The notes: a model not told the origin generated them from the sequence alone. Positions 8,055-64,000 are shown, counted from the first letter of the stretch. The stretch: DNA of 64,000 nucleotides from Naegleria gruberi (GCA_000004985.1 GG738848.1); one strand, 5' to 3'. Made by a program: numbers and translations.

Positions 8055-11000
8055 TTATTCCAAGTCAACTCTCATTTGTTTTGCAAAGTTAACCTTTAAA
8101 TCCTTCTGTTTCAAAAAGTCATCATATAATTGGGAAGTTATAAATCTTGAGAATGTATCTTCCATATTCAATTCAATCTGTGCTTGCAAATCATTGAAAC
8201 AATCAGCAATTTGCTTTCTCAATCCTCCCTCAGACGAATCCATCATTTCCAAATCCTTATTTTCAACATTCACTTGCTTGTACAAGAGTATGAATTTCTT
8301 TCTGGTCGTTGATGGCACATTCACTTCACAAACAGCATTCGAAACCATGAATAAATCATGAATATTTTTCAAAAAGTCTGAAATTCCATCCAAATATCTT
8401 CCACTTGTGAATAGTTCATTATTCAATAGATAGTCATAGAGATAAATATTTTCAGTTGAGAATTCTGATTGACAGAATTTTTCAAATACTTGACGTGCAT
8501 CTTGATCTTGCAAGAATATTGACAACTTGGAAATATTTCCAATCTTGTCCAAGTTGACCTTCTTTTGAATGTATAATTTGAGAAGGATGAGTAAGGAGAA
8601 ACCACCAAATACCAAAACATAACAGAATTGATACAAAACTTCCATAATAAATACAGCAACATCATATTTGAGTGCTGTATCATAAACAGTAGTTCCCTTA
8701 AATCTATATTCATTACTGGTCAACCCAAGAGATTGTTGAACAATTAGCAAGGCAAAGTAAACCAAATAAATAGCCATTTCAGTTCTAAAGAATAGTGGAG
8801 AATCTAATGAGAAAACTTGAACTCCAGCTCTGCTGACCTTTCCCTTAATATTCGAAATTCTAATTGTGGTCTTCTTTCTTAATGAATTCAAATCGGTTGA
8901 TCCCATCGATTCCAAATTTCTGAAACCTCCTCTACTTCTCTTTCTATAATAAGAAACTGAAATGTCAATAATTGCCACAAGTGAAATAATGATACTAAAA
9001 AGGAAGATAATGACAGTGTATGAAATGGACACAATATATGTATAGGTTTGTGCAGGAATGACATTGGTTCTCACTAAAATTACCCACAAAGTCCAATACA
9101 AAATATTCAAAATTGCAAATGAAATGATTATTGACATGAATACACGAGCAGATGTCAAAACCTTCAAAAATCTGAATCTTACTGAACCTTTCGGTTTGTG
9201 TGTTGAGATTTTTCCATATAAAAGTTTGAGTAATTCAAATCTCACAACTTGAATCACATAGGAAAGAATTGCTGTCAAATTCAAAGTGTTTACAATGATC
9301 ATTGTAACGTTACCAACAATATTCGCAGAATTTTGTTCTTCTTCCCAAATATTGGTATTTGTTTGGAATAAATAGTCAATTAGGACAGATCTCTGAACTA
9401 TGGAAATCAAAATACTTTCTGTCAGTAAAGCAATCATTCCCAAATAAGGTGTAATTAATCTGGACGAAACTGGTTGCTTATTTCTGAAAATAATCAACAT
9501 GACCAATACGAAACCAGAAAGTAATGTAAACACCACACCAAATGCAATCTCAGCATAGTACAGTTTGGAGATTTCCACAGCTTGTGCAATGGTTGGACTT
9601 GATTTGTCATTAGTTCCTGTAACATTAGTTTGTTTGTATTCGATAAATGTGGAAAATTTTGTTGTGTGATTGGAGCTACAGTTGACTTGATTAGCAGTCA
9701 ATCCAATGAATAACATTCCCTTAGTCTTCCAATTTTTACAGGTTTCGTCCCAAAATTTACAAACAATTTCAGTTTCGTTAGTAAACTTGGTAAATTCTTC
9801 TTTGGAAATTGCCAAATTAAGAACGATAGGATCTGCTAAATCAGAAAGTTTTGTCAAATTATAGTTTTGATAATATTTAAAATCAATAATTGAGGATGCT
9901 GTCTTGTTTCCATTAGCATCTACATTCTTGGCATAGGTGACAGATGACAATCCAATGACAGCATTTGTACCTCCAGTTGACTTGGCAATACTTGCAATAT
10001 TCAGTACAACACTACTGTTAAATCCACTTTCCAAAATATTTTTCACAACTGGAGTACTGACAGGTGTGGAATCTGGATTAGTCTGACTGGCAGATGTCTG
10101 AGAAGAATTGGATGGAGCTGTAGTGGTCTGTAACACAATCGTAGCAACAGTTGTGACAATTGCTGGACTTGAATATGTTTCACTTGGAATGGTAACTTGA
10201 GTTTCAGTAGTAGTTGCGGAGGTACTCGTGTTATTCTTATTCGAATCATCAGAAGATGTTGATCCAGTGGAGCTTAATACAGTTGGAACTTGTCCTTTCA
10301 TAACTAGAGTATTAAAAGTTGTCAATGTTTGCTCGACAGTTTCTTGAACAGTGACAGCTGGCGTGGAAGGTGAAGAACTTGAATCAGTTGTTGAAGTGTT
10401 AGTTGAGGTATTGTCTGTACTAATGATATTCGACAAAACTTGCAAAGTACTTGTCAAGACTTCGGTAGAAACCTTTGATTTAACATAACCATAAGTATTC
10501 AGCTCAACTGTGTAAGTGTCAACAACGTTTTCCATGTAAGTATCAACTTTCTTGGTGACTTCTGTTACAATCTCAGTGGTAACCTTCTCAGTTTCCTTAG
10601 TTAGAACATTCAAAGCTGAAAGAGCAGTTTCGGCATTTTCTTGACTAATCTCAATAGCAATGACTTTTTGTAAAATAACTTCTGGAGTAATCTCAATTGA
10701 CTGATCATACAAGAGAACATTCTTCAACTCGTAACATGTTGAATTCATTAAATCTGCAGTCGAATTAGGATAAGAAGTTACAATGACACTTCCAATTGAG
10801 TATTCTTGAAGATTTCCATTAACATCTTGGACAAATGCAATAATTGGAAGAGAATCGTTGGTTACGAATGGAAGCGGAAAGGTTATATCACTAACCGTCG
10901 TGAATTGTGTAATTCTAATAGATTTTTGTAAAGTAGGATGGAAGAAACCATAAGCAAACGAAAGTGGTTGTAATTGGAAATCAGCAATCCAACCACTTGA

Positions 11001-13797
11001 TGAAATATTGAATCTTGTGGCAATAGCAACACCTGTAGATGGTTCAATAGTGATGACATCTGGTATTTTAGGTAAACTCAAAACAGGAATCTCAATAAAT
11101 GTAAAGAAATTTTGTAAACCATTTCTGAAATTCAAATCAACCGTAATTTTTGTAATATCCAATGACTCTAAACTCACAACAGTGCTCAGTGACAATGGAG
11201 GTGACAATAAAATTCCAAATTGATTTCCATTTCCGTTCAACATTCCATTTGAAGATTTCAATAATTGAGTGCTTGATAAACTTCTCAATTTGATTGAGTA
11301 ACTATAACTGAATGAACAATCTTGATAGAGACAATTGAAATCTGAAACTTGAGAATAATCAGATAATGTAATATTGGAAATAATTGCTGATAATTGAACT
11401 TGTTTGGAGGTGTGTAGGTAATAAGTTGGTATTCCATAGGATTCTAGAGATTGAACTGCTCTGAATGTTTGGGAGGTAACCTGTACTACAAAGTCAAACA
11501 ATTGAGATTTGATGGAAGTGTCAATTGTTGTACCATAAAGTGTAAAATAATAGCTACCAGTATTGACATTTGAAAAGTCCAATGAGAAGGAATCAGTACT
11601 TTGGAATGTAGTTACCAACTCACAATTCAAACATATTAATGTAAACATTAAGTTTTGAATTGGATATTCTGTGGCAGTGACAGTAGCTGTCACAACTTGT
11701 GAATCACCCTTGACAATTAAGGTAGATGATAAGGCTGCTGAAACATGGTAGATTAAAATATTTTGACAAACTGAACCTCCGTAAATAGGAATACAAGAAC
11801 AAACATCAGGAGCTGAACATTGACCATGCCCAGAACAAACAACATCTGACACTGAGGAATTTCCATAACAATTGAAGGATTGACATACGTCTCCATAATA
11901 ACCAGCTTGACAGAAACATTTGGTAGATGTCAAGGCCAATCCACCATGTGTACATTGATTAGAGATAGTTTGAGGAACATCATCGCTCAGTAACATACTC
12001 AAACTAAACTGGAATGAAGTTTCTAATGATTCTGAATTGTAATCATAGAAAGAAAGCTTAAACTGATAAGCACCGGCAATATCATAACTATTAAAACTTC
12101 CTTCAAGTGAATATTTCGAATAATTGTAAAAGTTTCTATCAAAAAAATGTTCGAAAGAATTCACAGAGAAACTCTGCACAATAGAACTTGTGGAATTTGT
12201 GTAAATTAAACTGCTAATCTCAAAATGGCTCTCCAGATATAAATCAACATTGACTTTTAGATTGGAATCGAATGAAACTTGGAAATTATTTGGATAGACT
12301 GAGAAATCAAAGTTTTGATTGTCAACAGTCAAAGATTGTGAAATACTTTGAGTGATCATCCACAAGTTAACACTCACAGTCGCATTGTATATATAGTTAT
12401 AACACAAATCACCATGAAAATGACCATCTTGATCAACATATTGAGCTGACAGCGAAATGTCAAGTTTCCAATAATTTCCAAAGGTTGTCTTTCTCACTGA
12501 CGAACTTTCCAACAGTGTACTCAAAGGAATATAATTAGATGTATACGATTGTGTCAGCTCAGTGTCATTCTTTTCTAAAAGTGTCAATTTGATAGATTTC
12601 TCTTCATGATAATTCATACAACCTGTCAAATCATAACCAGAATCATCAGAAAAGAATAACTGATGAGTGTACACATCTGATCTTCCATAATAGGCAATAA
12701 ACTTAATACCACTTCCATCTGGTGAAATAATTCCAGTAATGTTCACATTAGGATAATAATCAATGTCCATAGTTGAGTTGGTTGAGTTATTGTTTGTGGA
12801 ATTATTGTCAATGATTTCTTCGTAGAGTTTGAAGAGTTCTCGTTTGTGAGTGGTACTTGGTTTGGAATGTTGTATTTCGTCTGAATCGTCCATGATAGTT
12901 TTCAATTTGTTATTCGAATCGACCATACGAAGAGAACCAGTTCGTGAAATGTAGAAAATTTCTTCTTCGCCCCAAACTGGAGAAACTCTCAACTTCATAA
13001 CATCTAGGAAGGCATGTTTAGCAAGAGTTTCGTCTGGCGATTCATCGTGATACTTGTTCAATCTCCCACCAATAATATCAAAAGTCAAATCTGGTTGAAT
13101 TCTCTTAATAAAAGTTCCATCAGAACAATAAATTATTCCATGTTTGATGTCAAATGTAAAATAACCAAAAGCTGTTTACAAAGTTCAGTAATAATACAAT
13201 TATTCGAAACTTACTTCCTTTCACATCACGAATAGTACCATCTTCAATCTTTCTAATCAAATTTGTTCTGTAATCGTAGAAATAAATGGTTTCACTCATT
13301 GCGTCTTGAGCCACATGTCCAGGTCGAATACATTCGTCATCATTAGTTTCGTCCTGACATTCATATTTGCTTCCAGCGAGAATGACTTTGTATCCTGAAA
13401 GTAAACGTTTCTTGATGTGATTTCCAGTCGAGTAAATAATTTCATCATATTCAGTCATAAAAAAACTCTGAATTGTTTCTACACTTTCCTCTACAAGAAT
13501 TGACGAATCTCCAAATAAACTAAGCGAACGAATTTGTGTCTTGTTGTGAAGATAAAGCACATGTTGATTCTCCCCGCTTCCATCCACCAACTCTGATATT
13601 TTACATGCCTCTCCACATTCAAATCTTGCAACAATATTGTTATCCTTTAGTTTACGAATTTCTTCTCTATTCGAAACCAATAATTGTCCTTCTTTAGAGA
13701 ATGTGAAGGTGGTGGCAGTTGACTCCACATGGCTGTGCACCAACAACACCAACAACCAAGAAAATACAACCAAGATGCTCAAACAATTGCTTGCCAT
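8055..13797 (-). CDS. Adhesion-GPCR-like receptor with C-terminal RGS domain (signal peptide, beta-propeller-like N-terminus, EGF-like Cys repeats, S/T-rich stalk, GPS motif, 7TM, RGS); 2 exons
   Basis: Exon 1 is 13215-13797, from ATG; N-terminus MASNCLSILVVFSWLLVLLVHSHVES is a signal peptide. A 43-nt GTAAGT…AG intron lies at 13172-13214 (phase 1). Exon 2 is 8055-13171. EGF-like CFCQAGYYGDVCQSFNCYGNSS…CSGHGQCSAPDVCSCIPIYGGSVCQ. GPS-like CKFWDETCKNWKTKGMLFIGLTANQVNCSSNHTTKFSTFIEY immediately before seven hydrophobic helices. C-terminal FEKFCQSEFSTENIYLYDYLLN…FSRFITSQLYDDFLKQK matches the RGS-box consensus. Confidence 0.75.
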
Positions 13798-14612: not shown

Positions 14613-15061
14613 TTCACATTCACCCAAAATGTATTTTTCATACGTGATGATTTTCTGTAAAAAGCCCAGGCTGAGAGGTATCTTTTTAAAAGCAATTTGT
14701 GTACGAAAAGGTGAACTCTACCACCACCTTAATAAAAAATTTTAAATTATCCGTGCTGACGAGAATGAATATAGGAATATTTCAACCTTAAATGTTAATC
14801 TCCAATATTCTAATTTTCCTCATTATTGGCAATAATTTACTACTAATCACCATAAACTTGAAAATGTCGTCTTTTTGATGATTTGGACCAGCAATTATCT
14901 TCTTAATTTCGGGATATTTTGTTTATAGATATTGTCCACTACATTTTGAATTGTACGTACTTGCTCTTAATAAGGTTCCATATAAATTAATTATAAAATT
15001 AAAAGGTCGACGATTATACAAAAGAACCACCTAGTTTGGAGATTTGAAAACACTAAAAAGA

Positions 15062-18000
15062 ATGAAAGAACCCGTCCAAAAATTGTCGCAGCATCAGCAT
15101 AATTATCAAGCACTTTATCATCTTCGGATTAATCATATGAAATTCTTATTCACCCTTATTAAAATCATTATACTAGCAACAACAACAATAATATTATTGA
15201 GTAGTAGTAGTGACAGGTTCTTATTAGTGGTTCTCTCGAGTAGTACGAGTGGTATTATCAATATTTCGCCGAAAAATCCACAACTTGACTCGGTGCAGTG
15301 GAATGATGAGAGGGAAATTTGGTTTGCACAATCTTGTCCTCTTTCTGGATCGAATAAGAGGTGAGTATTTTCATCACCATCATTGATAATTAATTTTTAT
15401 ATATTATTGATCTGTTTCAACGCTTGCAAATGAACTGTTCACTTCCTTAATATATATTACAACATCATTAATAATTTTTAACTGCTTGCACACATGTATA
15501 TAAAAGATTGGGCATTGAAATGAGGGATGGAATATTGGCTGCCTTTCATGAAGCCAATTCAATAGGAGGCATTTGGGGCTCTAAGAAATTAAAACTATTA
15601 ACTTTTGATGATGCCTACGAACCAACCAATACTAAACAGAATACCGACTTTTTCCTATACAATATAACACCACCGAATACTTCCCTTAATTATGAATCCT
15701 ATTTTTCACAGAATTCCCAATACAGAGAACAGATGAAGAATGTGAAATTGTTTGGATTGTTGGGATTTGTGGGAACACCAACAACTCAGGCTGTATTTGG
15801 AGATGTCGTTTCGAATTCCTTTCCTTTGATTGGGCCTTTTACTGGGGTTGGTTGGCTGAGAACACCATTCTACCCGAATGTTATTAATGTGAGAGCTTCC
15901 TACGATGATGAAACAGCTGCTATGGTCGACTGGCTGATAAATGTCAAGCTCATTAGAAAGATTAGTGTCATGTATCAAGCTGATAGTTTCGGTCAAGCTG
16001 GTTTGAATGGAATTAAACGAGCTTTGGTCGATTATCTCAAAATACCAATTCGCTCCATAGGTAGCTATCCAAGAAACACTCTTCAAGTAGAAGATGCATT
16101 TGCTGAAATTGGTAAAGGTTCACCTTCAGCAATAGTTTGCATTGGAACTTATGCTCCTCTGGCTAAATATATCAAAATGGTAAAGAACATGGCATTTGCA
16201 ACGAATGGAAATAATAATGGATATGAAAATGCTCAGGAAATAATCATCCTGACTGTTAGTTTTGTTGGTTCTTCTGCTTTGGTAAGTGAATTGCAGTCAA
16301 GCGCCCCAATTTCAAACAAGTTTGGCTCAAGTTATTATACAGACAATGTGGTCATTACACAAGTGGTTCCTTCACCATTTAATTTGAGTTATCCTATTGT
16401 GAGATCCTATCAAAAGGCAAGAAAATCATACATACTTTCGAATAATCCTTCGGCTAATCTTTCAGATTTTGTTCCCTCTTTCATAGAACTGGAAGGATAC
16501 ATTGTAGGAAGATTTGTAAACAGTGTGCTACAGAAAATGTCTGGAAATTTGACCAGATCAAACTTTTTAGCGACTTCCTATTTTGGAGGAAGTAGAGCTG
16601 ATGTTACAATTGCAGATTCTTCAATAGGAGATGCATCTGGAGGGGTTTTCAATTTTGATGGAATGCAATTGGGACCTTATAGATGGTGTGACTCAGTCAA
16701 TCTGATCGATATGAATTTACCTTATTCTAATGGTTTCGTATTACCAAGTCAAACTTCGGCCAGCAATAGCAGCGCATGTTCTTCTTTCAATTGTAATCAA
16801 GGAATGAAAGTTGTGTACAAGAGCTCTATCGACATCAAAAACTCCTCAGTTTCCTTTTCTGTATTTGGTGATTTATTTTCTTGGTATAATTACAAATCTG
16901 GAAGCTATTGCATTTCAGATCCAGTTCTTGTAAAGAAACCTCTTTTATTTGGCCAATCAATTAATACAGCATCAGGTGATTTCACTGAAGAACTCATGTT
17001 AAGAAAAGGAATTCTGGCTGCATTCGCTCTTCACAATCAAGGATTGACGTCAAATCAACAAAAATTAGAACTCTTAACAATGTATCATTCAGGAACAAGT
17101 GAAATGTTGAAGAATACGAAGGAATTTGTAGAGATTCATCATGCTCTTGGATTATTAGGATATTCTTCAACTAATTTGAATGTTGACATGTTGTCGAAAG
17201 CAATGACAGACAATTCATCTCAACTGAATGGTATTGCATTGGTGGGAACTGCTTCTACTATTAATTCGATGGATTTCAGATCAAGTTTCTTCCAAAATAT
17301 TATTCACGTTCATAGTTCCATTTTAGAACAATTAGGAACTATTGTGGATTACTCAATTAACACTCTAGGTAGAACAAGAATATCCATTGTTTATAGTAGG
17401 AATCAAGATTCGATGGCAGCTTATTCGATTCTTAACGAAATATTGTCAAGTTTAGATTTAAAACTTGATTCAGAATCGTGTATTCAAAACGAAACTTTTA
17501 TTTCAACTGATACAATCATCAGCGATCTATCTTTGAATGGAGCTAATCCTCAAATCATCATCTTTGCATTCCCTTCAAATGTAAATAATATTGGATCAAT
17601 CATTTCTTCCATTCAACAAACTTTTTCAACAGAACCAAAGTTTAGAAATGAATTGACCATATTTATGATCAATTCATTCTTTAAAGAAAATGTAGAGGTT
17701 GAAATATTACCTTGGATTTCATCTCCCAAGTTGGATAATGTCAAACTAATGTACGTGTCACATGTTCCATCCATAAATGGAACAGCTCACATTTCCATTG
17801 AAAAGTTTAAGGCAGCTATGGAGCTCTACTCTCCAGATCTTTCAAATTTATACAATACCAAAGTGTTGGAAGGTTTCTTTATAGGAAGTTTCATCAGTAC
17901 AATTATGGAAAATCTTGGAAATGAACCAACAAGTCAAAATTTAATCGAAACTATTTATAAGGTAAAGACATTTATCAATTTCCAGACTACTTTTGGTGCA

Positions 18001-20532
18001 TTTTCAGAGTCTTCCACAAGTCCATGTAATTTGGGAATGAGAATGAGTTATATTTATGGGCTTTCGAATAGTGGAGTTTCAGAGATTGCCACGAGAGATC
18101 ATTCTTCAAATTGTGGACTACACAGCTATGTTTCAACAAGAACTTCTGTCATTCACAGTAAGATAGATAGACCAATCTTACTTGGAAGATTAATTCCATA
18201 CAAAAAGGATGAAAATTCATTGCAAAATAAGATTGAATTGCTGAGTGAAGTTTCGACAATTGACATGGATGATTATGCCAGAGGATTGACTACCTATCTA
18301 AGTTATTTATCCTCAAAACAGTCTTACCAAAGTGTCAAGACCAAGAAAATCCACTTACTCACCGAGTATTACAGTTTAACCTCAAGTGGCAAAACTTTTT
18401 CGGACAAGTTGACAGCTCTCATCCAAAAGAATAAGATTTTCGCTCTCGTTGGTTCCATCATTAAATTCGACGAATCTACACTTAGCACTAATGACAAAAT
18501 AGATCAAATCTCCAAAATCCTTTCGAATAACAATATTCCACTCATTGATTCTCTGACAGGAAGTATTCGAATGAGGAAACCTTTTTCACAAATGTTTGTA
18601 AACATTGGTCCTTCGTTGTTGGATCAAGGAATTGCTTTTATTAATTATGCAAAGAGTAGATTTGGTCAAATTGCAATTGTTTATCAAGATTCAGAGTATT
18701 GGAAAGGAGCTTTGGATGAGATTGTAAACTTTTGTAGAATTGAATCGATTACAATAGGTCAATTGAGAGCTATAGATATTTTCAAGTCAATATCAGATCA
18801 AACAGATCATTTTGAGTCATTTTTGAAGGAGAAGGAAGATGTGGCTATATTTATTTTGGCAAATGACGTTCATTCAGCTGAAATTGTTAAATTGACATCT
18901 GTCACACACAAGGCAAATAGTTTTACTAATAATATCTTGTTTGGAATTCCTGTAGAGTCTGCTACCATTGATTTTGAAAGTGCAGTGATGAGCTGTTCCT
19001 CCCTTAGAAATGAAACATCTCCCTTGATTAGTAGTTTCGTTTCTGGTAAATCAGATTCTGAACTAATGTCAATTGTCAGCTCTTACATTTCATCAAACAA
19101 GTTATTAATTACCAAATCCATGTATTCACCCAACTACATCTCCCAAACTCATGATCAATACTCATTTTCCACAAGATTTTACACTCAATTTGCTGAATTT
19201 TCAAATTACCCAAAAGCAAATTATTTCACATTCGAAGGATACGTGATGGGTTACTTTATAGACATGATGATGGGTAGTATCTATCAATCTCAAGGTATAT
19301 CTGATCAAATATCTGATATTGCCTCTCAAGATTTATTAGACGCAATTTATTCAAATTCAGTTTTTGATATAATCTTTAAAAAGATTGGTCCTATGGGATA
19401 TACATGTTCTAACAATACAGAGGCAAGATCTACATGTGAAGATTCTTCCACTTTGGTTGTTGGTTGTGGGTGCAATCAGGGAGCCAAAGCGGTCTATTTG
19501 TCTGGATTGGCCAATTTCACACTTTCTTATAATCAAACTAATCTCAATTTCTTTGACATTTCTGATTATTCCCTGACTTTCAGAACATGTGGAGTTGAAG
19601 CTGTCGTTCCTTCCTTGTCCATCATTGCCATTATTTTCATTGTCATTGGTTCCTTACTCGCTGTATTTATCCTAATCCTTTCTCCAATTCTGAGCTATCG
19701 TTATTACATCTCCAAAAAGGCAATTAAGCATGCACCAACTTCCAAGAATGGTAAATTAGCTTGCTGTTTCACTGATGTCCAAAACTCTACCGTTTTGTGG
19801 CAATCCAATGAAAAGGCAATGAGAGAAGCTTTAGTCATTCACAATCAAATAATGAGACGAAACTTGGAATTATGCAATGGATTTGAAGTCAAGACCAATG
19901 GTGATAGTTTCTTTGTAGTTTTCAAAGATCCAGTCGATGCACTTGATTGGTGTGTCTCTGTCCAACATGATTTACTACATGCCAAATGGCCAGCTGATTT
20001 ATATAGTATGTGGGATTGTAGACCTGAATGGGATGAAGAAAGTAGACGAATGATGTGGTCAGGGGTGAGAGTTAGAATGGGATTACACTATGCACAGGCT
20101 GATTATGTCTTTGATAAGGTCATGAAGAGACCTGATTATTTTGGAACTTGTGTGAATACTTCTGCCAGAGTGGAGGCAATGGCCCATGGTGGACAGATTT
20201 TAGTGACTGAGGAATTCTTTTTGGAAACATGGAGGATTATGAAGACATATTTGTATTCGAATGTAAAGTTTCAGGAGCAGAATTATTATGGCTATGTCCA
20301 CGATATAACTTTGGCCATGTCGAATCCGTTATTGAGCCAAACTGCTTCCTTTACGCAAGATTCAAGTTTCAATAATACGAATAATACGAATAATACTTCA
20401 ATGGTTTCTGGAACTCAGAGTTCTTCGAGTGGAAACACTTCAAAAACTCCAAAGAGTACAGATGTTTCCAGAAAGTTAAATCTGAACGCTGCTTCTAAAC
20501 GAAAGAGACCTAAACATGCTGAGATGATTTAG
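15062..20532 (+). CDS. Receptor-type adenylate cyclase: signal peptide, large periplasmic-binding-protein-like extracellular domain, single TM, class III nucleotidyl cyclase domain; 2 exons
   Basis: Exon 1 runs to 15360. In-frame ATGs at 15062 (MKEPVQ…) and 15137 (MKFLFTLIKIIILATTTIILLSSSS, signal-peptide-like). Donor aag ag|gtgagt at 15361, acceptor …ataaaag| at about 15506 (phase 2; junction uncertain by ±1 nt). Exon 2 runs to the stop at 20530-20532. TM region is AVVPSLSIIAIIFIVIGSLLAVFILILSPIL. The cyclase domain KLACCFTDVQNSTVLWQ…EVKTNGDSFFVVF…GVRVRMGLHYAQADYVFD…YFGTCVNTSARVEAMAHGGQILVTEEF matches class III cyclase motifs (metal-binding D, transition-state N/R). Same architecture as trypanosomatid receptor ACs. 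Confidence 0.8.
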
Positions 20533-20561
20533 GTGAATACACGCTCAAGGGATTAGAAGGC

Positions 20562-25182: not shown

Positions 25183-25318
25183 TTTTTTTTTCTAAAATAT
25201 TTTTTTTAAATTTTTTTGAACTCCGCTGAAACTCCATTTCCCTCTTTACTAATTCTTTGATAACAACGGCAAGAATTATTGATTTATTAAGGATTTTATG
25301 GAAATGGAGGAAAAATAA

Positions 25319-46260: not shown

Positions 46261-46292
46261 ATTGTAATTCATGCATGATAAAATATTACAAT

Positions 46293-53664: not shown

Positions 53665-54876
53665 TTAGAAGAGCAACATCTTTTCTGGATCTTCGATCAA
53701 TTCCTTAACTCTCTTCAAGAAAGTAACAGCTTCTCTACCATCGATAATTCTGTGGTCATAAGTCAAGGCAACGTACATCATTGGTCTGACAACAACTTGA
53801 TCACCAATAGCAATTGGTCTATTCTTTGTGGCGTGCATTCCCAAAATAGCAGATTGTGGAGGATTGATAATTGGTGTACCCATCAAACTTCCGAAAACTC
53901 CACCATTAGAAATAGTGAAAGTACCACCTTGCATATCATCAAGGGAGATGGCATTCTTTCTGGCCTTTTCACCCAAGTTAGAAATGTCTCTTTCAATTTG
54001 TGCAATTGACTTGCTTTCACAGTTTCTGACAACTGGAACGACCAAACCATTTGGAGTGGCAACAGCAACACTAATATCGACATAATCACGATAAACAACT
54101 TCATTACCATCAATGACACCATTGACAGCTGGAACTTCAGTAAGAGCAATAGAAGCAGCCTTACAGAAAGCACCCATGAAACCCAACTTTAAACCATCGT
54201 GACGTTCTTGGAAATCGTCTTGGTTAACCTTTCTCAATTCCATAATCTTCTTCATGTCAATTTCATTGAAAGTGGTCAACATAGCATAGGTGTTTTGGGC
54301 TTGCTTCAAACGTTCAGCAATCTTAGCACGAATACGTGTCATTTTAACTCTTCTTTCAGTTCTAGCGAGTCCATTGGCAGAAGTAGTTGGAGCTGATGAT
54401 TGTGTTGGTTTAGCTTCTTCCTTCTTTGGGGTTGGTGTTGGTGTGGCAGTAGGAGTTGGAGTAGAAGGAGTGGAAGCAGTTGTTGTTGTTGTTGTAGTAG
54501 TAGAAGGAGTGGAAGCAGCAGCAGCAGGTGTAGCAGTTGGCTTACCATCAGTATCAATGATGGCAATATCCTTACCAACTTCAACGGTATCCTTGGCATT
54601 AGCCAAAATAGCCTTCAAAACACCAGCTTCTGGAGCACGGATTTCCACAGAGACCTTATCAGTATCAATAGTACAAATGACTTCATCTTCAACACAAGCT
54701 TGACCTGGTTTTTTCACCCATTCATTGATTTCACCTGATGAGATGGAATCACCCATTGATGGAACCTTTATCATAACATCCTTCAAGAGAGAAGGAGTAG
54801 AGTGAAGGAAACGTTGTTGGGAAATGAATTTCTTGCTGGCCAAGATGCGTGATGATTGAACGATAGATCTTCTCAT
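53665..54876 (-). CDS. DLST: Dihydrolipoamide succinyltransferase, E2 component of 2-oxoglutarate dehydrogenase (mitochondrial)
   Basis: Single exon with ATG at 54876. Presequence [31 protein letters not shown]. Lipoyl domain …[49 protein letters not shown]… (lipoyl-Lys in TDKV). A/P/T-rich linker. Catalytic domain …[37 protein letters not shown]…[24 protein letters not shown] with the DHRxxDG active site. Confidence 0.9.
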
Positions 54877-56012
54877 TTTTTGTATTAGATTTTTGAAAAT
54901 TTAAAAATAATAATTTTATTTAAAATATTGATTGTGCGATGAAGAAAAAGCGCCTTTGTAGTCAAATCTGCTTCGGGATTTTTAATTCGGCCATTTTACT
55001 TCTGCTGAAACAATCAATTAAATTATTATTGGCAAAGAGGTATGTTGTCAGAGATTGTGGTGAGTGGGGGGTTATCATTGATTGAATTTATTGCAATTTT
55101 AAACTATTATTACATGCATAATTGATGTATTGATGATGATGAATTGGTTTGAAGAGAGAATCTATTGGCGAGAAGATAGTTCAACAATTCATGCATCATC
55201 GGTATAAAACTGTAAAGAAGATGTTTTTTCTCTCGGGCAATGGTGTTTCAGGACCATGGTCTGATTTTCATTCCAACAATTTTGTAAACATCCAACCAGA
55301 CTATGACTTTTATTACCCAATGGGGTTGATTGTTAAGGTTTTTCAGTAATCATGTACTGTATTCACACTTTTTGTAATCTTGGTGTGAGCAACAAGGTCT
55401 TTGAAAATGCACTTTAGATTTTTAGGAGTTTGAAAACTGTGAATTCATTGAACATCAAACAATACTCCAAGTCGAACCAATTTCTCCATTTGACAATAGT
55501 GTATTGTTTTCTTCATCATGAACTACAACTGAATCTCAACGATTCGATTCAACAAACGTATCCTTAGATAACGAAGAATTTCATTCAATACAAGTTTTGT
55601 TTCATAAGAGGAACATTACATCTTTTGGAGTTAACACATTGAGTAAATTATTATTGTGTTAGGCTACACACTAAATTGTGAATTTATCTATTAAAGCATA
55701 CTTCTTTTTCCAACATGCACCCAATTCTCAGCACATTTGTAACACGGGAATGGAAAATAAATGCAAAACCTATCTCGCACTCAATTACAGTGAGGCTTGT
55801 AGTTAACGGCTAATTCCCTCCAAAATTTTTATGATTAGAAGGTTCCCACTTCGCAATCCAGGTGAATTTACCAAAACAGCAAAGATTTAAAATTACACGA
55901 ACGAAAAAAACAACTCGACAACAATTTTGTGTGTTATTGTAGAACATCACAATTATCTTTGAATATCAAATATACAATCACTCTCTCCCCCATTTCCCTG
56001 TACCCTAGAAAA

Positions 56013-57610
56013 ATGTTCGGATATGATCAAAAGTTTCTCGATTACTCTGTCCTTGAAACCTTCAACAAATTAGATCAACACGGTAAAATTATGGCTGAAT
56101 ACGTGTGGATTGGAGCAGTTGATCCTATGGGTGACGTAAGGTATGTTTATTCATTCTACAATCATGATGATTAATTCTTCTTCTTCTTTCCTCCTACTGC
56201 TTGTTCATAACGACTGTTGGCTTTGTATTTTGGTCAAACTTACATATCGGGGTGTTATTCCTAATTCGCTCTTCATGGAAATTTCGCGTTTTTTCCGTAC
56301 CTACTATTTTTTGGCTGGTGCAACTTGTCGTAATTATCATGCCCTGACCTTGTTTCTTCCTGTGATGAAATAATCATTTATTGAATACTACTCCTCACCA
56401 TACTATGAACTGCTTTTTACTCAACGAACCAATGATCATTACACTCCTAATGATGAATAATTATCTTTCAATGTGTTTTGTTTATTCCGCACTGACAGAT
56501 CCAAAACGAGGACATTAGACTTTATTCCAACCAAGCCAGAACAATTGCCAGAGTGGAACTATGATGGTTCAAGTACTAACCAAGCTTCAGGCCACGACAG
56601 TGAAGTCATCATTAAACCAAGAGCTATCTTTAAGGATCCGTTCAGAGGTGGTGACAATATTCTCGTAATGTGTGACACCTATAGACCAAACGGTGAACCT
56701 CTTGCAACCAATACTCGTGCTCCTGCTGTTGAAATTTTCAACAAGGACCTTTCTGCCAAGCCATGGTACGGTTTTGAACAAGAATATACTCTCTACAGTT
56801 GTGATATGCATCCATTAGGTAAGTAATTTATCATCATTAACTGTTAATAATCAATTCCGTTAAATCATTGAAAATTGATAATTATTCAACAATTTATTAC
56901 ACATCAAATTGTTTCTATTAACCTAAACTCCGATAATTTCCACTCGTCGTTTTATTTAATTTTTATGATTTAAAACAGGTTGGCCAAAGGGAGGTTATCC
57001 TGGTCCACAAGGTCCATACTACTGTGGTGCTGGTGCTGAAAAGGCATTTGGTAGAGCCATTGTTGAAGCCCACTACAAGTGTTGCCTCTATGCAGGTGTA
57101 AATATTTCTGGTATCAATGCTGAAGTAATGCCAGGTCAATGGGAATTCCAAGTTGGTCCTTGTGAAGGTATTTCGGGTGGTGACCATTTGTGGATGGCAA
57201 GATACATTTTGTCTAGATTAACTGAATATTTCCGTGTCATTGTCTCATTCCATCCAAAGCCAATGCAAAACTGGAACGGTGCTGGTATGCATACCAATTA
57301 TTCAACTGAAGTCATGAGAAATGAAGGAGGATATGAAGCTATTTTGGATGCTATCAAGAAATTGGAAGCTAAACATAAGGAACACGTTGAACATTATGGA
57401 GCTGATAACCATTTGAGATTAACAGGAAAATTTGAAACATCCTCCATGGAAAGATTTTCATATGGTGTTGCTGATAGAGGAGCCTCTGTTAGAATTCCTA
57501 GATCAACTGAAGCTGAAAAGAAGGGCTATTTTGAAGATAGAAGACCTGCTTCTAACGCTGACCCATACCTTGTTTCTTCGCTCATCTTTAAGACAACTTG
57601 CCTCGAATAA
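56013..57610 (+). CDS. GLN: Glutamine synthetase type II; 3 exons
   Basis: Exons are 56013-56140, 56499-56818 and 56979-57610. Donors ag|gtatgt and g|gtaagt, acceptors …actgacag| and …taaaacag|, phases 2 and 1. Spliced protein: [104 protein letters not shown]…[30 protein letters not shown]…[27 protein letters not shown]…[11 protein letters not shown]…SVRIPR… All are GS II signature blocks. Confidence 0.9.
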
Positions 57611-57993
57611 TTATAATAGTAATTTCGGATTAGTTTTTATAATATAGTATTCAACAATTTCATTTCAATTTTCTGTATATACAACCTCATTGTATAACAC
57701 AACATTACCCATTGTGTGGGGAGCATATCGAACGATTCGATATCAAGAACTCTTGTGTCAATAAAAAATATTTAATTAATAATGAATTGCTCTCTCTCGC
57801 TCGCTCAAATGCTCAAGAAGTAACATCCTCGCACTTTCTCACTCGAAAATTTCAATTGAATCAAATTATTCTTATTATTGAATTATTCCAAAATATTTGT
57901 TTGAATCAATTTCATAGTATTTGTTTGTTTGGTCAAGACTTTATGTTCTCGCAAAAAGTAGAACTCCATCAATTTACTTCTTTAAAACTTTTG

Positions 57994-60900
57994 TTAAAAA
58001 AAATGCCAAGAACAAACCCAGGTGCTCAAAAAAAGAGATCCAACTCTGCCATTGACTTGACCGAAGAAGATGAAGTTGTCCAAATCTCAGACGAAGAGGA
58101 AGAAGTTATAAAAAAGAGGAATGAAAGGCTACTTCAAAAACAAAGGGAAGCCATGATTAGATACGAACGAGCACAATCAGAGACTAGTTTCAATGAGGAA
58201 TTTACTCAGATAGCCTCTGAATTGTACACTCTCACAAAACACAATGAAAGTATGGAAACTCTCATCACACAAATTGATAGATTAAATATTAAAGATCCCA
58301 TGGAAGAAACGGAAAAATCAAAGATTGATTTATTGGCAGAGCAAATCATTAAACAGAGTGATGATATTGTTAGTTTTAATGTTTCCGGACAAGTATTTAC
58401 CACAACAAAAGGAACCATAAGAAGAGAGAAGGAATCATTCTTGACAGTCTTGATTGATGAAAATTCACATCTTCCATTCGACACGGATGAGTCTGGTGCT
58501 TTTATTATTGAAAGAAGTGCCTTGTTGTTTTCCTATATTTTGAAATATTTGCAAAATTTGGATGAATTTACAGGTGAATTTGATATTGATATTTTACCAA
58601 AGGAAAAGACTGTGTTGAATGCATTGTTAGAAGAGGCTAAATTCTTCAGTCTTTCCAATTTGATAGAAGTTCTAGATAAGAACAACTCTGCTCAAATGTT
58701 GGAGGGTAGATCAGCTGCTAGACTTGTGGATGTTTGGAATTATGGAAATATTGTACGTGATGCTGTTGTGAGTGATGAATATTTGGATCAAATCAAGGAA
58801 AGAGTTCAAAGGCGTAAGGAGCAATTGAATCAACAACGAGAAATGATCAAGAATTTGGTAGAAAATCAACAGAAAAAACAAGTTGAAACCAGAAGAAATG
58901 AATTAGAATCAAAATTAGCTCAAATCAGACAAGATTTAGGAAAAGTTGATTCCTTGACAGTTTTCTTTTCAATTAGTGGAACAATATTTGAAATGGATAT
59001 CTTTCAAGTTTTCAAATTCAAAGAGTCCTTGCTTTGTAAGATTGTTCAAAAATATAACATACCAATTCAAGAAACAAAATCTCGTCCAATTTTCATTGAT
59101 AGAGAACCTGAACAATTCACACACATCAAATATTTTATTGAGAATGAGTGTCTTTCAGAGGATTTATTGTATGGTCGTTCTTATAACAAGAAGGCCCTTC
59201 TCAAGGAGGCTGCTTTTTATAACATTACAGATTTGGTGAAATATTTAGATCCAGTTTACAGATTCCCAATTGAAGAGCTTGGATCACATAACGTCGTCAT
59301 GAAAAGAGAGGAAGACCTACTGAGATCATACTTTGCTACAAATAGAGATCATCCATTGCTGAGCGATCCTTATTTACATTTAATTAATGTATTCGACAAT
59401 TTGGATACTTTCAAAAAACAGCCATTCCCTGATCGTGGAAACATTTTATTCAAACAGTATTCTGATCATTTATTTGTTGAATCCAGAGAGGAGTTTGAAT
59501 TTAACTTTAATTGTTTTACGAAAGGAATTTTTAATGGTATGTAATATTGATAATACTTTAAAAATTAATAGAAATGTTAAGGCATGGATTGGAATGGAGT
59601 TATTATGGCAGGCGGTAGTGTGCTAGCTTGTTTATCATCTGTTCCTGCTGAATCATTTAGAACAACTCAGAAACCAACTTTTTACCTTGATAACCGAAAA
59701 AAGAAGACTCAACTCGAGGATTTAATCCCCAACAATCTTATTGAACCAACTGCAGAAAAGGAAGCAAACTTGCCACATTCTGCTTATTACAAGGCAAGTG
59801 ATATCAAGATGGATTTATTGGGAAAGTCATATTTTTACAATAGAGCAGACACTCATCCATTTGCTGATTCAGATATCGATATATTCCTTTATGGACTTTC
59901 TGAAGAGGAGGCAGAAAGTAAAATCAGACATATTTACGAAACAATTAAGAAGAATACCAAATCAAATATTGTTGTCATGAGGTCATCCATGACAATCACG
60001 ATGCAAGTATGTGATTTTAGACCCGTACAAATTATTTTGAGATTGTACAAGAGCCCTTCTGAGGTATTGATTGGATTTGACGTTGATTGTTGTGTAAGTT
60101 TTCTTAGTATTGCATAATTTTTGTAATATTAGCAAGTGTTTTGCATTTGATGGATCTGAGGTGTTTTGTTTACCTAGAGGTAGAAGGTATGTTTAATTAT
60201 TTGCTTACTATCATCTAAATTTCATTTCAGATCTGTTGTCCATAGTGTGAACTTTGTTGATATTGACAACAATCTACCACCTATGAAAATAGACTTTACA
60301 AATATGCAGGTCGTAAGTATGATAAATCAAATGATAGTCCCTTAACAAAATAATAGGTGGATTTAAGGTGTGTGTTGTTGGGATGGACTCTGATAAAATT
60401 GTGAGAGAGGGTTTGCGTCCAGATGATTCATATTTAAACAATTTTCCTAGTTCAAACTTTGATGTAGTAAAGGCAGATTTCACAAACAGTAGAGGTCTTG
60501 CCAGATTGCTGCTTTTGGAGAAGAAGTCCACCTATATTCTTGGGGAAAAAGATCAACGAGTAACGGAGAATACAATTATCAAATTTACCGCTGAGGAGAG
60601 ACAAAAGTTGTTATTTAATAATTGGGATATGGATAGTGATTATCTTGGAGTTCTTATAGCATTCAAGTATAGAGGAGTACCAACATTCTTTTCTGATTTA
60701 TTGGAAATGTTACAATCTGGCTTAACTCAAACCAAATTGATAATGACTGTGGATGAAATTGAAACTATTCTTAATATTCCTGACCAAAAGCTCGCTCAAT
60801 GTGAACTTACCAAGAGAATTGAGTGGATTAAGATTGATCCAGGTATGTTTTATTTTCTAAAATCTTTTCCAAATCTAATATTTCAAAAAAAGGTCGACAA

Positions 60901-61678: not shown

Positions 61679-64000
61679 ATGGAAACAATCGGCTTTAAAT
61701 TATTAAACAAACAAAAGAAAAATCACAAACCATCTGTAATAGTTTCGAATACTTCCGAGAGACAAATGCCACACCAAAAGCAAACACTGGATTCATCGTT
61801 TTATTCATCAACAGATTCTTCATGCAATATCATGAATGAATCGGCAACTAACTATGAAGATTATCAGTTTAGTTTCGAAAAATTGTACAGAGAAAAAGAA
61901 ACTAGATTATTAATGAAGGAATACATGGAGATGGGTAAGTAATTAGTTTCTTCATCAACCAACAATTATTTTGAAATCTTCTTGTTTTAAATCTGAACGT
62001 TGTGATTGCGACACATTCATACAAATTTGGTAATCGTCTACTTTGGTGAAAATTGTGGATTTTTTGTTCTGTGGCCATGATTAGAAATGCACTCACCTGA
62101 GAGCTTTAAATTCTTGGACAACATTGAATCCTTAAAGCATTCCTGTCAAAATATTCCATCCTCATCGACACAACAATTGATTGACCAATTTCTTGATCAA
62201 ACTTTCTCAATAATTGAAACATTTATTCTACCTCAATCAGAAATGGAAGTGAATATAGGAAGAAAGGAGAAGGAAGTTGTCATGTTGAAATACAAACAAC
62301 TCCAGAGTCAATGGTCAGAAAGTTCTTCAGCAATTCTTGAACCTGTCAAAATTTGGGAGATTTTTGAAGAAGCAAGAATTGTAATAATGACAGAATTGAA
62401 ACAGGACGTATTTCCAAGATTTATCAGATCTCAAAGGTTTATTAGCTTTATACAGACTCATGATAAGGAGTTCCTTGATAAGATTGGTTTGAATCTTGGT
62501 AGAAGAATTTCAGATACAGTTTCAGTTTCTTCAGACGAATCAAGTGGAAATTCCACTACTCAAAGAAAGAAAGTAACAGTAGATTATAGTGTCAGACCTG
62601 AATTTTATTGGAAAAATTATCAAGCAGATGCTTCAATTCATAACATTACTCAACAAGATGTCAAATTTGTTAACTCATTGACATTAGACAGCAATATTTG
62701 GCAATTATTTAAAGTTGGTGACAAGAAAAAGGGAGAATACTTTGCCAGTTTCGTTTCCAAACAGAAACTCTCAGTTTTCAAACCTGATTCCACAACAGAA
62801 CGACAAGTCAACCCTCAGAAATTATACAAATTCACAGGTGTCATTAATCATTCCTTAGAAGAATTGTTATTCACACTGACAAACCCTGCCTACATGATGG
62901 ATTACGACAATCAACTCAGTGTCGTTGAACAACTTGATTATCTCAATGGATTTGATTATTCTAGCTCAATTTCAGTTCAAGGATCCTCAAGCGCATTTTG
63001 GGAAAATGAAAATTTTGATGATTCGAGTTCTGATGGTGGATTGAGTGTTGATTCACAAAGTAGTACTTCTCCAAAGGTATCTCATTCGGATGATAAGTTT
63101 AGTTCTTCCATTTGCTTGGAAACTTATCCTTTCGGATGGCCAATTTCGAATAGAGATTTTCTTGTAACTCAATCACTTATATACGAAGCTAAAACTCAAC
63201 GATATATTTTGGTAAAAAAGTCAATTTCTCATCCAAATTATCCAAAGAGAAAGGGAACTACTCGTGGATTCATTGTTGGTGGATGGACCATTCAGAGAGT
63301 GACTGAAAATCAAACAAGATTTTGTTTCGTCAGCTTTACTGATATGGATTTAAACGAAAGGGTGTTTAATCAACTTTGTAAAAAGAAGGGAAAACGTTTA
63401 TTTGATGGATTGAATCAAACTCTGGATAGAAATTCTGAAAATGGTTTTCTTAGACCTTTATTCTCATGTGGATTATTGGAAACTTTGGAAGATTTCTTGA
63501 AATTCTACAAATTACCTGAAACTATTCTCAACGAAACTCAAGTCCAAGTATTGAAAAAGCAAAAGAGCGACAAATTCAAGAGTTTCGAAATTGATGGCTC
63601 ACTCGTTCGATTAATCTACGTTTCCAGATATGACGAATCCAAACTTTCTTCCAAAGATTTCGACCAAATCAATCAAGTTTCCAATAGAAACAACCAACCA
63701 CTGAACTTGAGTGGTATCCTTCTCAGTGGTCAAGGCGTTTTCTATCAAGTCCTCGAAGGAGATCCAAAATTCATTTATCCAACCTATGAAAGAATCAAAA
63801 AAGATTCGAGACATTTCGATGTTTGGTGTGTGAGTGAGGAAAGTGGAGTTAAGGAATGTGAAAGACAGTTTTCTAATTGGGCCATGAAATGTGTTGATTT
63901 GGTGAATAGTGATCATTATTTGGCTCAGTTTATGAGAAATATAATCGAAACCTTGTCGAAACTTTCAAAAGCTTCAAGAGATTCGACTAATTGGGATGAA
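61679..64000 (+). CDS. RGS-START-BLUF multidomain protein (5' partial; runs off the window end); at least 2 exons
   Basis: Exon 1 is 61679-61934 (ATG METIGFKLL… to …SFEKLYREKETRLLMKEYMEM). A 150-nt GTAAGT…TTAG intron lies at 61935-62084 (phase 1). Exon 2 runs from 62085 to >64000 with no stop; I translated it by hand. It is absent from the ORF track because it lacks a terminal stop. The RGS box spans the intron (SFEKL…FKFLDNIESLK … FEEARIVIMTELKQDVFPRFIRSQRFISFIQ). A START-like lipid-binding domain follows (…NIWQLFKVGDKKKGEYFASFVSK…PISNRDFLVTQSLIYEAKTQRYILVKKSISHPNYPKRKGTTRGFIVGGWTIQRVTENQTRFCFVSFTDMD…). Then a BLUF domain LVRLIYVSRYDESKLSSKDFDQINQVSNRNNQPLNLSGILLSGQGVFYQVLEGDPKFIYPTYERIKKDSRHFDVWCVSEESGVKECERQFSNWAMKCVD has the conserved Tyr (IYVS), Gln (FYQVLEG), DxRH, and W/M (SNWAM). 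Confidence 0.8.

What the first reader, a model, noticed from the sequence alone, without database searches (positions are those of the whole stretch)
8055..64000. Subtelomeric concentration of environmental-sensing and second-messenger genes
Within ~56 kb next to a telomere lie at least five membrane or sensor signalling genes: GPCR-RGS, receptor AC, receptor Ser/Thr kinase, PAS-cyclase and RGS-START-BLUF. A pseudokinase, an F-box protein and a KCTD-like BTB protein accompany them. Conserved housekeeping genes (DLST, glutamine synthetase, cathepsin Z, 5S rRNA, tRNAi-Met) are interspersed. Subtelomeres are often sites of expansion and diversification of contingency or sensor families. This window may sample such a family-expansion zone.
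Basis: inference. Interest (0 to 1): 0.5.

Follow-up and report, generated by a model that had tools for sequence, protein, structure and literature searches.

The report
Signalling genes beside a Naegleria telomere
The end of a Naegleria gruberi chromosome really does carry five large sensor genes within 56 kb. They are old, unrelated members of gene families scattered across the genome and sit among housekeeping genes, so nothing here shows a subtelomeric gene-duplication zone.

Summary
The window is the telomeric end of a 712,659-bp Naegleria gruberi NEG-M scaffold. It holds (AAACCC)74, then 7.6 kb of gene-free repeats, then compact unique DNA. The F-box, double-BTB, DLST, glutamine synthetase, cathepsin X, 5S and initiator tRNA calls also hold. 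Only the "pseudokinase" label is unproven, because the catalytic Asp/Asn/Asp residues are kept.

About 6 of 25 genes are kinase, cyclase, GPCR or RGS genes, against a 2.4-3.3% background. That is a nominal, post-hoc enrichment of about 7-fold.

The marks of an expansion zone are absent:
- No paralogy inside the window.
- Nearest paralogues of the three genes tested are at most 45% identical, or absent.
- The 13 other N. gruberi 7TM-RGS paralogues identified lie on 13 other scaffolds.
- Relatives in N. fowleri, N. lovaniensis and Willaertia are mostly chromosome-internal, with unrelated neighbours.
- RGS-START-BLUF is single-copy with dN/dS about 0.12.

One counter-hint remains. A different 7TM-RGS paralogue is the penultimate gene before a (TTTGGG)n telomere in N. 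lovaniensis. A genome-wide test was not possible with these tools.

The parts
1..446 (.). Telomere repeat (AAACCC)74, that is (TTTGGG)n on the other strand
   Evidence: The same repeat ends N. lovaniensis contig PYSW02000006.1. Published as the N. gruberi candidate telomere (PMC3622300).
447..8000 (.). Gene-free subtelomeric repeat zone. Degenerate units of about 310 bp and duplications spaced about 1.8-2.6 kb apart, GC 24-32%, two assembly gaps (1153-1562, 3019-3319).
   Evidence: No Pfam hit for its only ORF of 100 aa or more, 5380-5736. No similarity to the N. lovaniensis subtelomere apart from the telomere repeat.
8055..13797 (-). 7TM-RGS receptor (NAEGRDRAFT_62535): signal peptide exon, EGF repeats, GPS, 7 TM, C-terminal RGS. 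It is transcribed toward the telomere.
15035..20948 (+). Receptor-type class III cyclase: two periplasmic-binding-protein-like ectodomains, one TM, cyclase domain. Three exons.
21723..23428 (-). Iml2/TTC39-like TPR protein (two exons)
23905..25191 (-). Cathepsin X/Z (papain family, multi-exon, signal peptide)
   Evidence: procathepsin X 1deu, E = 2.9e-51
25322..27421 (-). Receptor-like Ser/Thr kinase: N-terminal hydrophobic segment, TM at residues 280-298, kinase domain split by one intron
27630..27748 (-). 5S rRNA gene
   Evidence: 105 bits
32089..32160 (-). Initiator tRNA-Met (A1:U72, GGG/CCC anticodon stem, A54/A60-type T loop)
36428..38684 (+). A short intron removes the in-frame stop at 38292. 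HND..N and DFE motifs are kept.
40389..41708 (+). IFRD-family protein
41822..43135 (-). PQ-loop membrane protein
44277..45263 (+). F-box protein
   Evidence: 27.1 bits, gathering score 20.5
46296..51668 (-). Multi-TM TmcB-like, PAS and class III cyclase protein. The cyclase domain lies on exons 47032-47220, 46716-46904 and 46296-46598.
52296..53492 (+). PhyH-like dioxygenase
53665..54876 (-). DLST (E2 of 2-oxoglutarate dehydrogenase)
   Evidence: E = 1.7e-122 to solved DLST
55929..57610 (+). Glutamine synthetase (multi-exon)
57712..59544 (+). Protein with two BTB_2 (KCTD-type) domains
61679..64000 (+). RGS-START-BLUF protein. It runs 19 codons plus the stop past the window end. BLUF keeps the Tyr (LIYVS), the Gln (FYQVLEG) and the W..M motif (NWAM).

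Best explanation
This is an ordinary, gene-dense chromosome-arm end of Naegleria gruberi. A short true subtelomere (telomere plus about 7.6 kb of repeats) abuts normal core-type chromatin. In that chromatin, five long sensor genes from five different architectures lie among single-copy housekeeping and RNA genes.

The concentration reflects three things. First, signalling genes are abundant in Naegleria: kinases, cyclases, 7TM-RGS and other RGS proteins make up roughly 2.5-3.5% of genes from published counts. Second, these genes are very long. Third, there is local over-representation whose cause is not established.

The region was not built by local duplication. Each sensor gene is an old, diverged member of a dispersed family, or a single-copy conserved gene. 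Each presumably works on its own:
- 7TM-RGS as a ligand-modulated GAP for G-alpha.
- The two cyclases as membrane receptors that make cyclic nucleotide.
- RGS-START-BLUF as a blue-light-modulated RGS.

Shown here: anatomy, domain content, lack of local or close paralogy, and lack of synteny. Inferred: the biochemical roles and the absence of a telomere-linked mechanism.
For: - No similarity between any two ORF segments of the window.
- RGS-START-BLUF: only three 90% clusters in 5.8 billion proteins. These are N. gruberi, N. fowleri (48%) and W. magna (45%), so it is single-copy and conserved. dN/dS is 0.12 against an environmental isolate.
- Receptor cyclase: nearest N. gruberi paralogues are 41-42% identical, about the same as N. 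fowleri (40%) and N. lovaniensis (38%) homologues.
- 7TM-RGS: no relative above 50% identity. Thirteen other N. gruberi paralogues share 35-45% identity in the conserved module, each on a different scaffold.
- The family is the published 7TM RGS radiation: 28 genes plus 79 other RGS proteins in N. fowleri (PMC9283941).
- The closest N. fowleri relative is internal, at 258-266 kb of a 697,547-bp contig among housekeeping genes. The W. magna RGS-BLUF orthologue is internal. The N. lovaniensis cyclase homologue sits 60-85 kb into a 253,725-bp contig beside SRP68 and RPN11.
- No neighbour of any window gene is shared with any related locus.
- DLST, glutamine synthetase, cathepsin X, 5S and initiator tRNA-Met are interleaved.
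- GC is uniform at 31-38% from 8 kb inward, and intergenic gaps are under about 1 kb.
Against: - The enrichment is nominally strong: 6 of about 25 genes against 2.4-3.3% expected (P about 2e-5 to 1e-4), and Fisher 0.007 against 2 of 61 neighbour genes in relatives' loci.
- A second chromosome end, in N. lovaniensis, also has a 7TM-RGS-family gene as its penultimate gene, transcribed toward the telomere, with a Kelch-kinase 13 kb further in. With anchor genes excluded, the two telomere-proximal 26-kb stretches have 3 of 11 signalling genes against 1 of 56 elsewhere (P = 0.012).
- Signal-transduction genes are reported as over-represented in the Naegleria accessory genome (PMC9928731).
- Paralogy of the PAS-cyclase and the receptor kinase was not tested.
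- Positions of the N. gruberi paralogues within their scaffolds are unknown.
Confidence: 0.6

Rival explanations
1. Naegleria chromosome ends are genuinely preferred sites for receptor and second-messenger genes. Ectopic exchange between ends seeds dispersed family members there, and relaxed constraint lets them diverge. On this view the window is one sample of a genome-wide subtelomeric sensor enrichment, ancient-duplication form.
For: - Nominal 7-fold enrichment.
- Two different 7TM-RGS paralogues are the telomere-proximal large gene, in the same orientation, in N. gruberi and N. lovaniensis, each about 8 kb from the repeat.
- A Kelch-kinase lies near the same N. lovaniensis end.
- The sensor genes here are far more diverged from their relatives (26-50%) than housekeeping genes would be.
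- Signal transduction is enriched in the accessory genome (PMC9928731).
Against: - Only 1 of 3 independently drawn 7TM-RGS relatives is telomeric. P(at least 1 of 3) is about 0.07 under random placement.
- No recent duplicates, fragments or pseudogenes.
- Housekeeping genes lie within 25-55 kb of the telomere.
- RGS-START-BLUF is single-copy and under purifying selection.
- The sample sizes are tiny and the category was defined after the fact.
Confidence: 0.3
2. The genes form a functional, co-regulated signalling neighbourhood. G-protein regulation (two RGS proteins) and cyclic-nucleotide synthesis (two cyclases) would be kept together for shared expression, for example during the amoeba-flagellate switch or in the light response.
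For: Two RGS-domain proteins and two class III cyclases lie within 56 kb. Both pathways converge on second messengers.
Against: - The genes are on both strands and separated by unrelated housekeeping and RNA genes.
- The arrangement is not conserved at all in N. fowleri, N. lovaniensis or W. magna.
- No expression data were available.
Confidence: 0.05
3. The adjacency to the telomere is a scaffolding artefact. The telomeric piece (1-1152) is joined to the genes only across two N gaps within repetitive sequence, so the gene block may not be terminal.
For: N gaps lie at 1153-1562 and 3019-3319, inside a repeat family present on both sides.
Against: The same repeat units (D2, D7, D10) occur on both sides of the gaps in consistent order. 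An independent long-read N. lovaniensis contig shows the same layout, with the telomere about 8 kb from a 7TM-RGS gene.
Confidence: 0.05

Closest known systems
Naegleria 7TM RGS protein family (Bosch et al. 2022, PMC9283941). AtRGS1 of plants is the characterised prototype.
   Same: Gene 8055-13797 has the described architecture: EGF repeats, a GPS motif, seven TM helices and a C-terminal RGS box. It has at least 13 N. gruberi paralogues plus N. fowleri and N. lovaniensis relatives.
   Different: No biochemical data exist for this member. It is only 36-45% identical to any relative in the conserved module and 26% over the full length to the N. lovaniensis hit. The paper says nothing on chromosomal location.
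Subtelomeric contingency or niche-adaptation gene families: Plasmodium var/rif, Trypanosoma brucei VSG/ESAG, T. cruzi TS/DGF-1 (PMC3418195), yeast MAL/SUC/FLO
   Same: The region is close to a telomere. It is enriched for surface or sensor proteins that belong to multi-copy families.
   Different: Those zones hold many closely related paralogues, pseudogenes and repeats, are shared between chromosome ends, and lack essential genes. Here there is one member per family, no close paralogues, no fragments, and essential housekeeping genes are interleaved.
Trypanosome receptor-type adenylate cyclases (ESAG4/GRESAG4). This comparison rests on my own knowledge.
   Same: A periplasmic-binding-protein-like ectodomain, a single TM helix and a class III cyclase domain. 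ESAG4 copies sit in telomeric expression sites. Trypanosomes and Naegleria both belong to Discoba.
   Different: The window protein has two PBP-type modules and is about 1,900 aa long. No homology beyond the domain level was tested. It has only two N. gruberi paralogues at 41-42%. It is not part of an expression site.
BLUF photoreceptors of Naegleria: the photoactivated adenylyl cyclases and the N. fowleri 'BLUF-containing protein' A0A182C3J6
   Same: The BLUF domain scores 82.7 bits and keeps the Tyr, Gln and W..M motif. The best solved relatives are the BLUF domains of photoactivated cyclases. The N. fowleri protein is the 48% orthologue.
   Different: The output domains are RGS and START rather than a cyclase. 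Light regulation of GAP activity is untested.

Membership tests
Subtelomeric family-expansion (contingency-gene) zone | Lies next to a telomere | tested here: met
   (AAACCC)74 at 1-446. The first gene is 7.6 kb away. The join crosses two N gaps.
Subtelomeric family-expansion (contingency-gene) zone | Several paralogous copies of the same family within the zone (tandem or clustered duplicates) | tested here: not met
   All-against-all blastp of every ORF segment of 60 aa or more gave no pair at E<1e-4. The five sensors have five different architectures.
Subtelomeric family-expansion (contingency-gene) zone | Close (recent) paralogues elsewhere in the genome, typically at other chromosome ends | tested here: not met
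   Nearest N. gruberi paralogues: 7TM-RGS 43-45%, cyclase 41-42%, RGS-START-BLUF none. Positions of the paralogues within their scaffolds could not be read. The PAS-cyclase and the receptor kinase were not searched.
Subtelomeric family-expansion (contingency-gene) zone | Pseudogenes, gene fragments and repeats or transposons between the genes, and a lack of essential genes | tested here: not met
   Repeats stop at about 8 kb. About 84% of 8-64 kb lies in gene spans. The in-frame stop in the kinase-like gene is intronic. DLST, glutamine synthetase, 5S and initiator tRNA-Met are present.
Subtelomeric family-expansion (contingency-gene) zone | Diversifying selection or copy-number variation between isolates | tested here: inconclusive
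   Only one gene and one other isolate were available. RGS-START-BLUF against metagenome contig L001: 9 differences in 1914 nt, dN/dS 0.12.
Subtelomeric family-expansion (contingency-gene) zone | Family density higher near telomeres than in chromosome interiors, genome-wide | not testable with these tools
Small proxy: 3 of 11 against 1 of 56 genes, P = 0.012. Of 3 independent 7TM-RGS relatives, 1 is telomeric.
Naegleria 7TM RGS proteins | Seven transmembrane helices followed by a C-terminal RGS box | tested here: met
   Seven hydrophobic segments at residues 1183-1507. RGS at 1525-1658, 36.8 bits against a gathering score of 23.9.
Naegleria 7TM RGS proteins | Adhesion-GPCR-like ectodomain (EGF repeats, GPS motif) in many members | tested here: met
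   GPS scores 24.4 bits against a gathering score of 22.5. The EGF_TEN and EGF_2 hits are below their gathering scores, but the repeats recur in relatives.
Naegleria 7TM RGS proteins | GAP activity on G-alpha subunits | not testable with these tools
   Shown biochemically only for N. fowleri members (PMC9283941).
Receptor-type class III nucleotidyl cyclase | Extracellular ligand-binding domain, single TM helix, and an intracellular cyclase homology domain | tested here: met
   Peripla_BP_6 64.9 bits, ANF_receptor 29.5 bits, TM at 1372-1390, Guanylate_cyc 58.5 bits. Substrate specificity and catalytic residues were not examined.
BLUF photoreceptor | BLUF fold with the flavin-pocket Tyr and Gln and the Trp/Met switch residues | tested here: met
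   BLUF 82.7 bits. A profile hits photoactivated-cyclase BLUF domains at E about 1e-24. LIYVS, FYQVLEG and NWAM are visible in the sequence. Flavin binding and a photocycle were not testable.
START lipid-binding domain (middle of RGS-START-BLUF) | Helix-grip START fold | tested here: inconclusive
   Partial Pfam START match: 25.3 bits in the window and 23.5 bits in N. fowleri, both above the gathering score of 22, but none in W. magna. A weak STARD10 hit at E = 0.022. The AlphaFold model is unusable at pLDDT 33.6.
Pseudokinase | Kinase fold with loss of the catalytic Lys, Asp (HRD) or Asp (DFG) | tested here: not met
   The spliced product keeps H-N-D-I-K-P-E-N and D-F-E. The Pfam kinase scores are weak at 17 and 30 bits. 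It is divergent, but inactivity is not shown.

The most novel reading that the evidence does not exclude
Naegleria chromosome ends may be a conserved niche for receptor genes. On this reading, members of the 7TM-RGS radiation, and perhaps cyclases and kinases, are preferentially the first genes inside the roughly 8-kb subtelomeric repeats and are transcribed toward the (TTTGGG)n telomere, as seen for two non-orthologous paralogues in N. gruberi and N. lovaniensis. That would make subtelomeres the cradle of the genus's large sensory repertoire.
Probability: 0.25. Interest if true: 0.45.

Novelty: already known. Interest (0 to 1): 0.2.

Why it matters
If Naegleria chromosome ends were shown genome-wide to concentrate sensor genes, that would give a mechanism for how this free-living or pathogenic genus built its very large cyclase, RGS and kinase repertoire. 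It would also extend the 'subtelomere as innovation zone' idea from parasites and yeasts to a free-living discoban.

As it stands, the window shows no such mechanism. The value of this check is to stop an over-reading and to define the simple genome-wide test that would settle the question.

Tried and rejected
- Exact look-ups of N. gruberi proteins to place paralogues on their scaffolds all failed. N. gruberi is not in the gene-position index.
- I tried using GenBank accession order as a proxy for position. EFC49285 and EFC49155 are 130 apart for genes only 50 kb apart, so the order is not positional.
- A metagenome scan with a 16-sequence GPS-7TM-RGS alignment, meant to draw more family members and look for telomeres in their flanks, gave only 6 short contigs and no telomere repeats.
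- AlphaFold on the putative START region with a 4-sequence alignment gave pLDDT 33.6. No fold search was attempted.
- Treating N. lovaniensis P0029 as the orthologue of the window's 7TM-RGS, which would mean conserved telomeric synteny, was rejected. Its nearest N. gruberi relative is P0048, on another scaffold.
- The word-indexed homologue search badly under-reported the 7TM-RGS family: 3 hits against 157 by exhaustive phmmer. 'No paralogue' results therefore hold only for close paralogues.
- Literature searches for Naegleria subtelomere organisation found nothing. The Cell 2010 genome paper is not held.

Full report
WHAT THE WINDOW IS

Bases 1-446 are 74 perfect copies of AAACCC. The RGS-BLUF reading frame at the far end is 587/587 identical to Naegleria gruberi NAEGRDRAFT_45871. 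The first large gene is NAEGRDRAFT_62535. Both are recorded on a 712,659-bp scaffold. TTTGGG is the published candidate telomere of N. gruberi (PMC3622300). I also found it ending an N. lovaniensis contig. So the window is a telomeric scaffold end of the N. gruberi NEG-M genome. One caveat: two runs of N (1153-1562, 3019-3319) lie between the telomere and the genes.

ANATOMY

From 447 to about 8000 there are no convincing genes. GC is 24-32%. The sequence is built from degenerate units of about 310 bp and duplications spaced about 1.8-2.6 kb apart. This is the true subtelomere.

From 8055 inward the DNA is unique, with GC at 31-38% and intergenic gaps mostly under 1 kb. By my gene table, about 84% lies within gene spans. 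There are roughly 24-25 protein genes plus a 5S rRNA and a tRNA in 56 kb. That matches the genome-wide average of about 2.6 kb per gene (41 Mb and 15,727 genes, from my own knowledge of the genome paper).

CHECK OF EACH NAMED GENE

All five sensor genes are real.
- 8055-13797(-): a signal-peptide exon, EGF repeats, a GPS motif, seven hydrophobic helices and a C-terminal RGS box.
- 15035-20948(+): two periplasmic-binding-protein-type modules, one TM helix and a class III cyclase domain. The flanking exons are confirmed by homology in two related loci.
- 25322-27421(-): an N-terminal hydrophobic segment, a TM helix and a kinase domain split by one intron.
- 46296-51668(-): a protein with about 12 TM segments, a TmcB-type TPR, a PAS domain and a cyclase domain on three small exons.
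- 61679-64000(+): RGS and BLUF. A START match passes Pfam's threshold when the middle region is searched alone, both here and in the N. fowleri orthologue, but not in W. magna. The structure prediction was useless. The BLUF Tyr, Gln and W..M motif are visible in the sequence.

The companion calls also hold: F-box, a protein with two BTB_2 domains, DLST, glutamine synthetase, cathepsin X, 5S rRNA and an initiator-type tRNA-Met.

The one label I could not uphold is 'pseudokinase'. The in-frame stop at 38292 lies in a 45-51-nt GT..AG intron. The spliced product keeps HNDIKPEN and DFE.

IS THE CONCENTRATION MORE THAN CHANCE?

Six of about 25 genes carry kinase, cyclase, 7TM or RGS domains. Published counts give the background:
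- 265 kinases, 37 GPCR-signalling genes and at least 81 cyclases (PMC9928731).
- 28 7TM-RGS plus 79 other RGS proteins in N. fowleri (PMC9283941).

These counts put such genes at about 2.4-3.3% of the proteome. The binomial probability of at least 6 in 25 is then about 2e-5 to 1e-4. It rises to 1e-3 to 1e-2 if the true fraction is 5-8%.

As an empirical control, I counted the 61 non-anchor genes in six loci fetched from relatives. Only two kinases were among them (Fisher P = 0.007).

So the enrichment is nominally real, at about 7-fold. Three things weaken it. The category was chosen after reading. The sensor genes are very long and cover 38% of the region. The controls are small and come from other species.

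IS IT A FAMILY-EXPANSION ZONE?

The marks of such zones were tested and are absent.
1. No two ORF segments in the window resemble each other at E<1e-4.
2. RGS-START-BLUF has just three clusters in the 5.8-billion-protein collection. These are itself, N. fowleri at 48% and Willaertia magna at 45%. It is a single-copy gene older than the genus. Against an environmental N. gruberi-like contig it shows 9 differences in 1914 nt, with dN/dS 0.12.
3. The receptor cyclase has two N. gruberi paralogues at 41-42%. That is no closer than the N. fowleri (40%) and N. lovaniensis (38%) proteins.
4. The 7TM-RGS gene has no relative above 50% identity. An exhaustive profile-free scan with its GPS-7TM-RGS module then revealed a large family, with 157 representatives at E<1e-3. 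Name look-ups identified 13 further N. gruberi paralogues at 35-45% identity, every one on a different scaffold. This is the '7TM RGS' radiation already described for N. fowleri. It is old and dispersed, not local.
5. Relatives elsewhere are mostly not terminal. The W. magna RGS-BLUF orthologue lies at least 97 kb from either contig end. The N. lovaniensis cyclase homologue lies 60-85 kb into a 253,725-bp contig beside SRP68 and RPN11. The closest N. fowleri 7TM-RGS lies at 258-266 kb of a 697,547-bp contig, among dynein, MBOAT, EMC3 and ubiquitin genes.
6. No neighbour of any window gene recurs in any of these loci.

THE ONE OBSERVATION THAT POINTS THE OTHER WAY

N. lovaniensis protein P0029 is a 7TM-RGS-family member. 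It is the penultimate gene on contig PYSW02000006.1, is transcribed toward a (TTTGGG)n telomere about 8.4 kb downstream, and has a Kelch-kinase 13 kb further in. The layout mirrors the window.

It is not the orthologue of the window gene, because its nearest N. gruberi relative is P0048 on another scaffold. Two different paralogues therefore occupy the same terminal position in two species.

Under random placement a gene has about a 2.4% chance of lying within 10 kb of a telomere. With one hit in three independent draws, P is about 0.07. Pooling the two telomere-proximal 26-kb stretches without their anchor genes gives 3 of 11 signalling genes against 1 of 56 elsewhere (P = 0.012). This is suggestive, but not enough.

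CONCLUSION

The region is telomere-adjacent and nominally rich in sensors from families that are expanded in Naegleria. This stretch itself shows no sign of being where expansion or diversification happens. It looks like ordinary core chromatin that begins 8 kb from the chromosome end.

Whether Naegleria chromosome ends in general are enriched for sensor genes needs a genome-wide density-versus-distance analysis. These tools cannot run it, because N. gruberi gene positions are not indexed.

COMPARISON WITH KNOWN SYSTEMS

The parts are members of known kinds:
- Naegleria 7TM RGS proteins.
- Receptor-type class III cyclases. These share their architecture with the trypanosome ESAG4/GRESAG4 cyclases, some of which are telomeric (my own knowledge).
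- BLUF photoreceptors. The N. fowleri orthologue is already in UniProt as a BLUF protein.

The region differs from classical subtelomeric contingency arrays such as var, VSG/ESAG, TS/DGF-1 and yeast MAL/FLO in every structural hallmark except its position.

Noticed in passing
window 57712-64000 (+): The JGI/NCBI model NAEGRDRAFT_45871 (1284 aa) fuses the double-BTB gene, parts of the unknown ORFs at 60.3-60.9 kb and the RGS-START-BLUF gene into one protein, skipping part of the RGS box. Orthologues in N. fowleri (670 aa) and W. magna (644 aa) cover only RGS-START-BLUF, so the model is probably chimeric.
   Followed up: partly
window 15508-20532 (+): This uninterrupted 1,674-codon receptor-cyclase ORF has no 90-100% match in the 5.8-billion-protein collection. 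The best hit is 50%, from another organism. The N. gruberi proteome is in that collection, so the gene seems to be missing from the published annotation.
   Followed up: partly
window 29896-31311 (-): ORF of 471 aa with a signal peptide followed by an extremely basic, repetitive body (RRSAPKRRR and CAAPKRK repeats; tandem DNA repeats of 12-63 nt). It has no Pfam match. Long antisense ORFs overlap it because of the repeat composition.
   Followed up: no
window 447-8000: The subtelomeric repeat zone is built from a degenerate unit of about 310 bp (for example 447-493, 749-795, 2585-2631, 2894-2940) and duplications at about 1.8-2.6 kb spacing. It has no similarity to the N. lovaniensis subtelomere, which is about the same length (8.4 kb).
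   Followed up: partly
L005 26135-26624 (N. lovaniensis PYSW02000006.1 end): N. lovaniensis uses the same TTTGGG telomere repeat as N. gruberi, with occasional TTGGG variants near the inner edge.
   Followed up: yes
L001 (ENA metagenome contig ERZ929261 k127_405076): An environmental metagenome contig is 98.1% identical to window 60679-64000. The CDS is 99.5% identical and the upstream 1.4 kb clearly less so. A near-NEG-M N. gruberi strain is therefore present in that sample.
   Followed up: partly
window 36428-38684 (+): The kinase-like gene has an unusually short intron (45-51 nt) that carries the in-frame stop. About 230 residues upstream of the kinase-like region have no detectable domain.
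   Followed up: partly
window 8055-13797 (-): The word-indexed homologue search returned 3 relatives of the 7TM-RGS gene. Exhaustive phmmer returned 157. Family-size conclusions from the indexed search alone would have been badly wrong for this fast-evolving family.
   Followed up: yes
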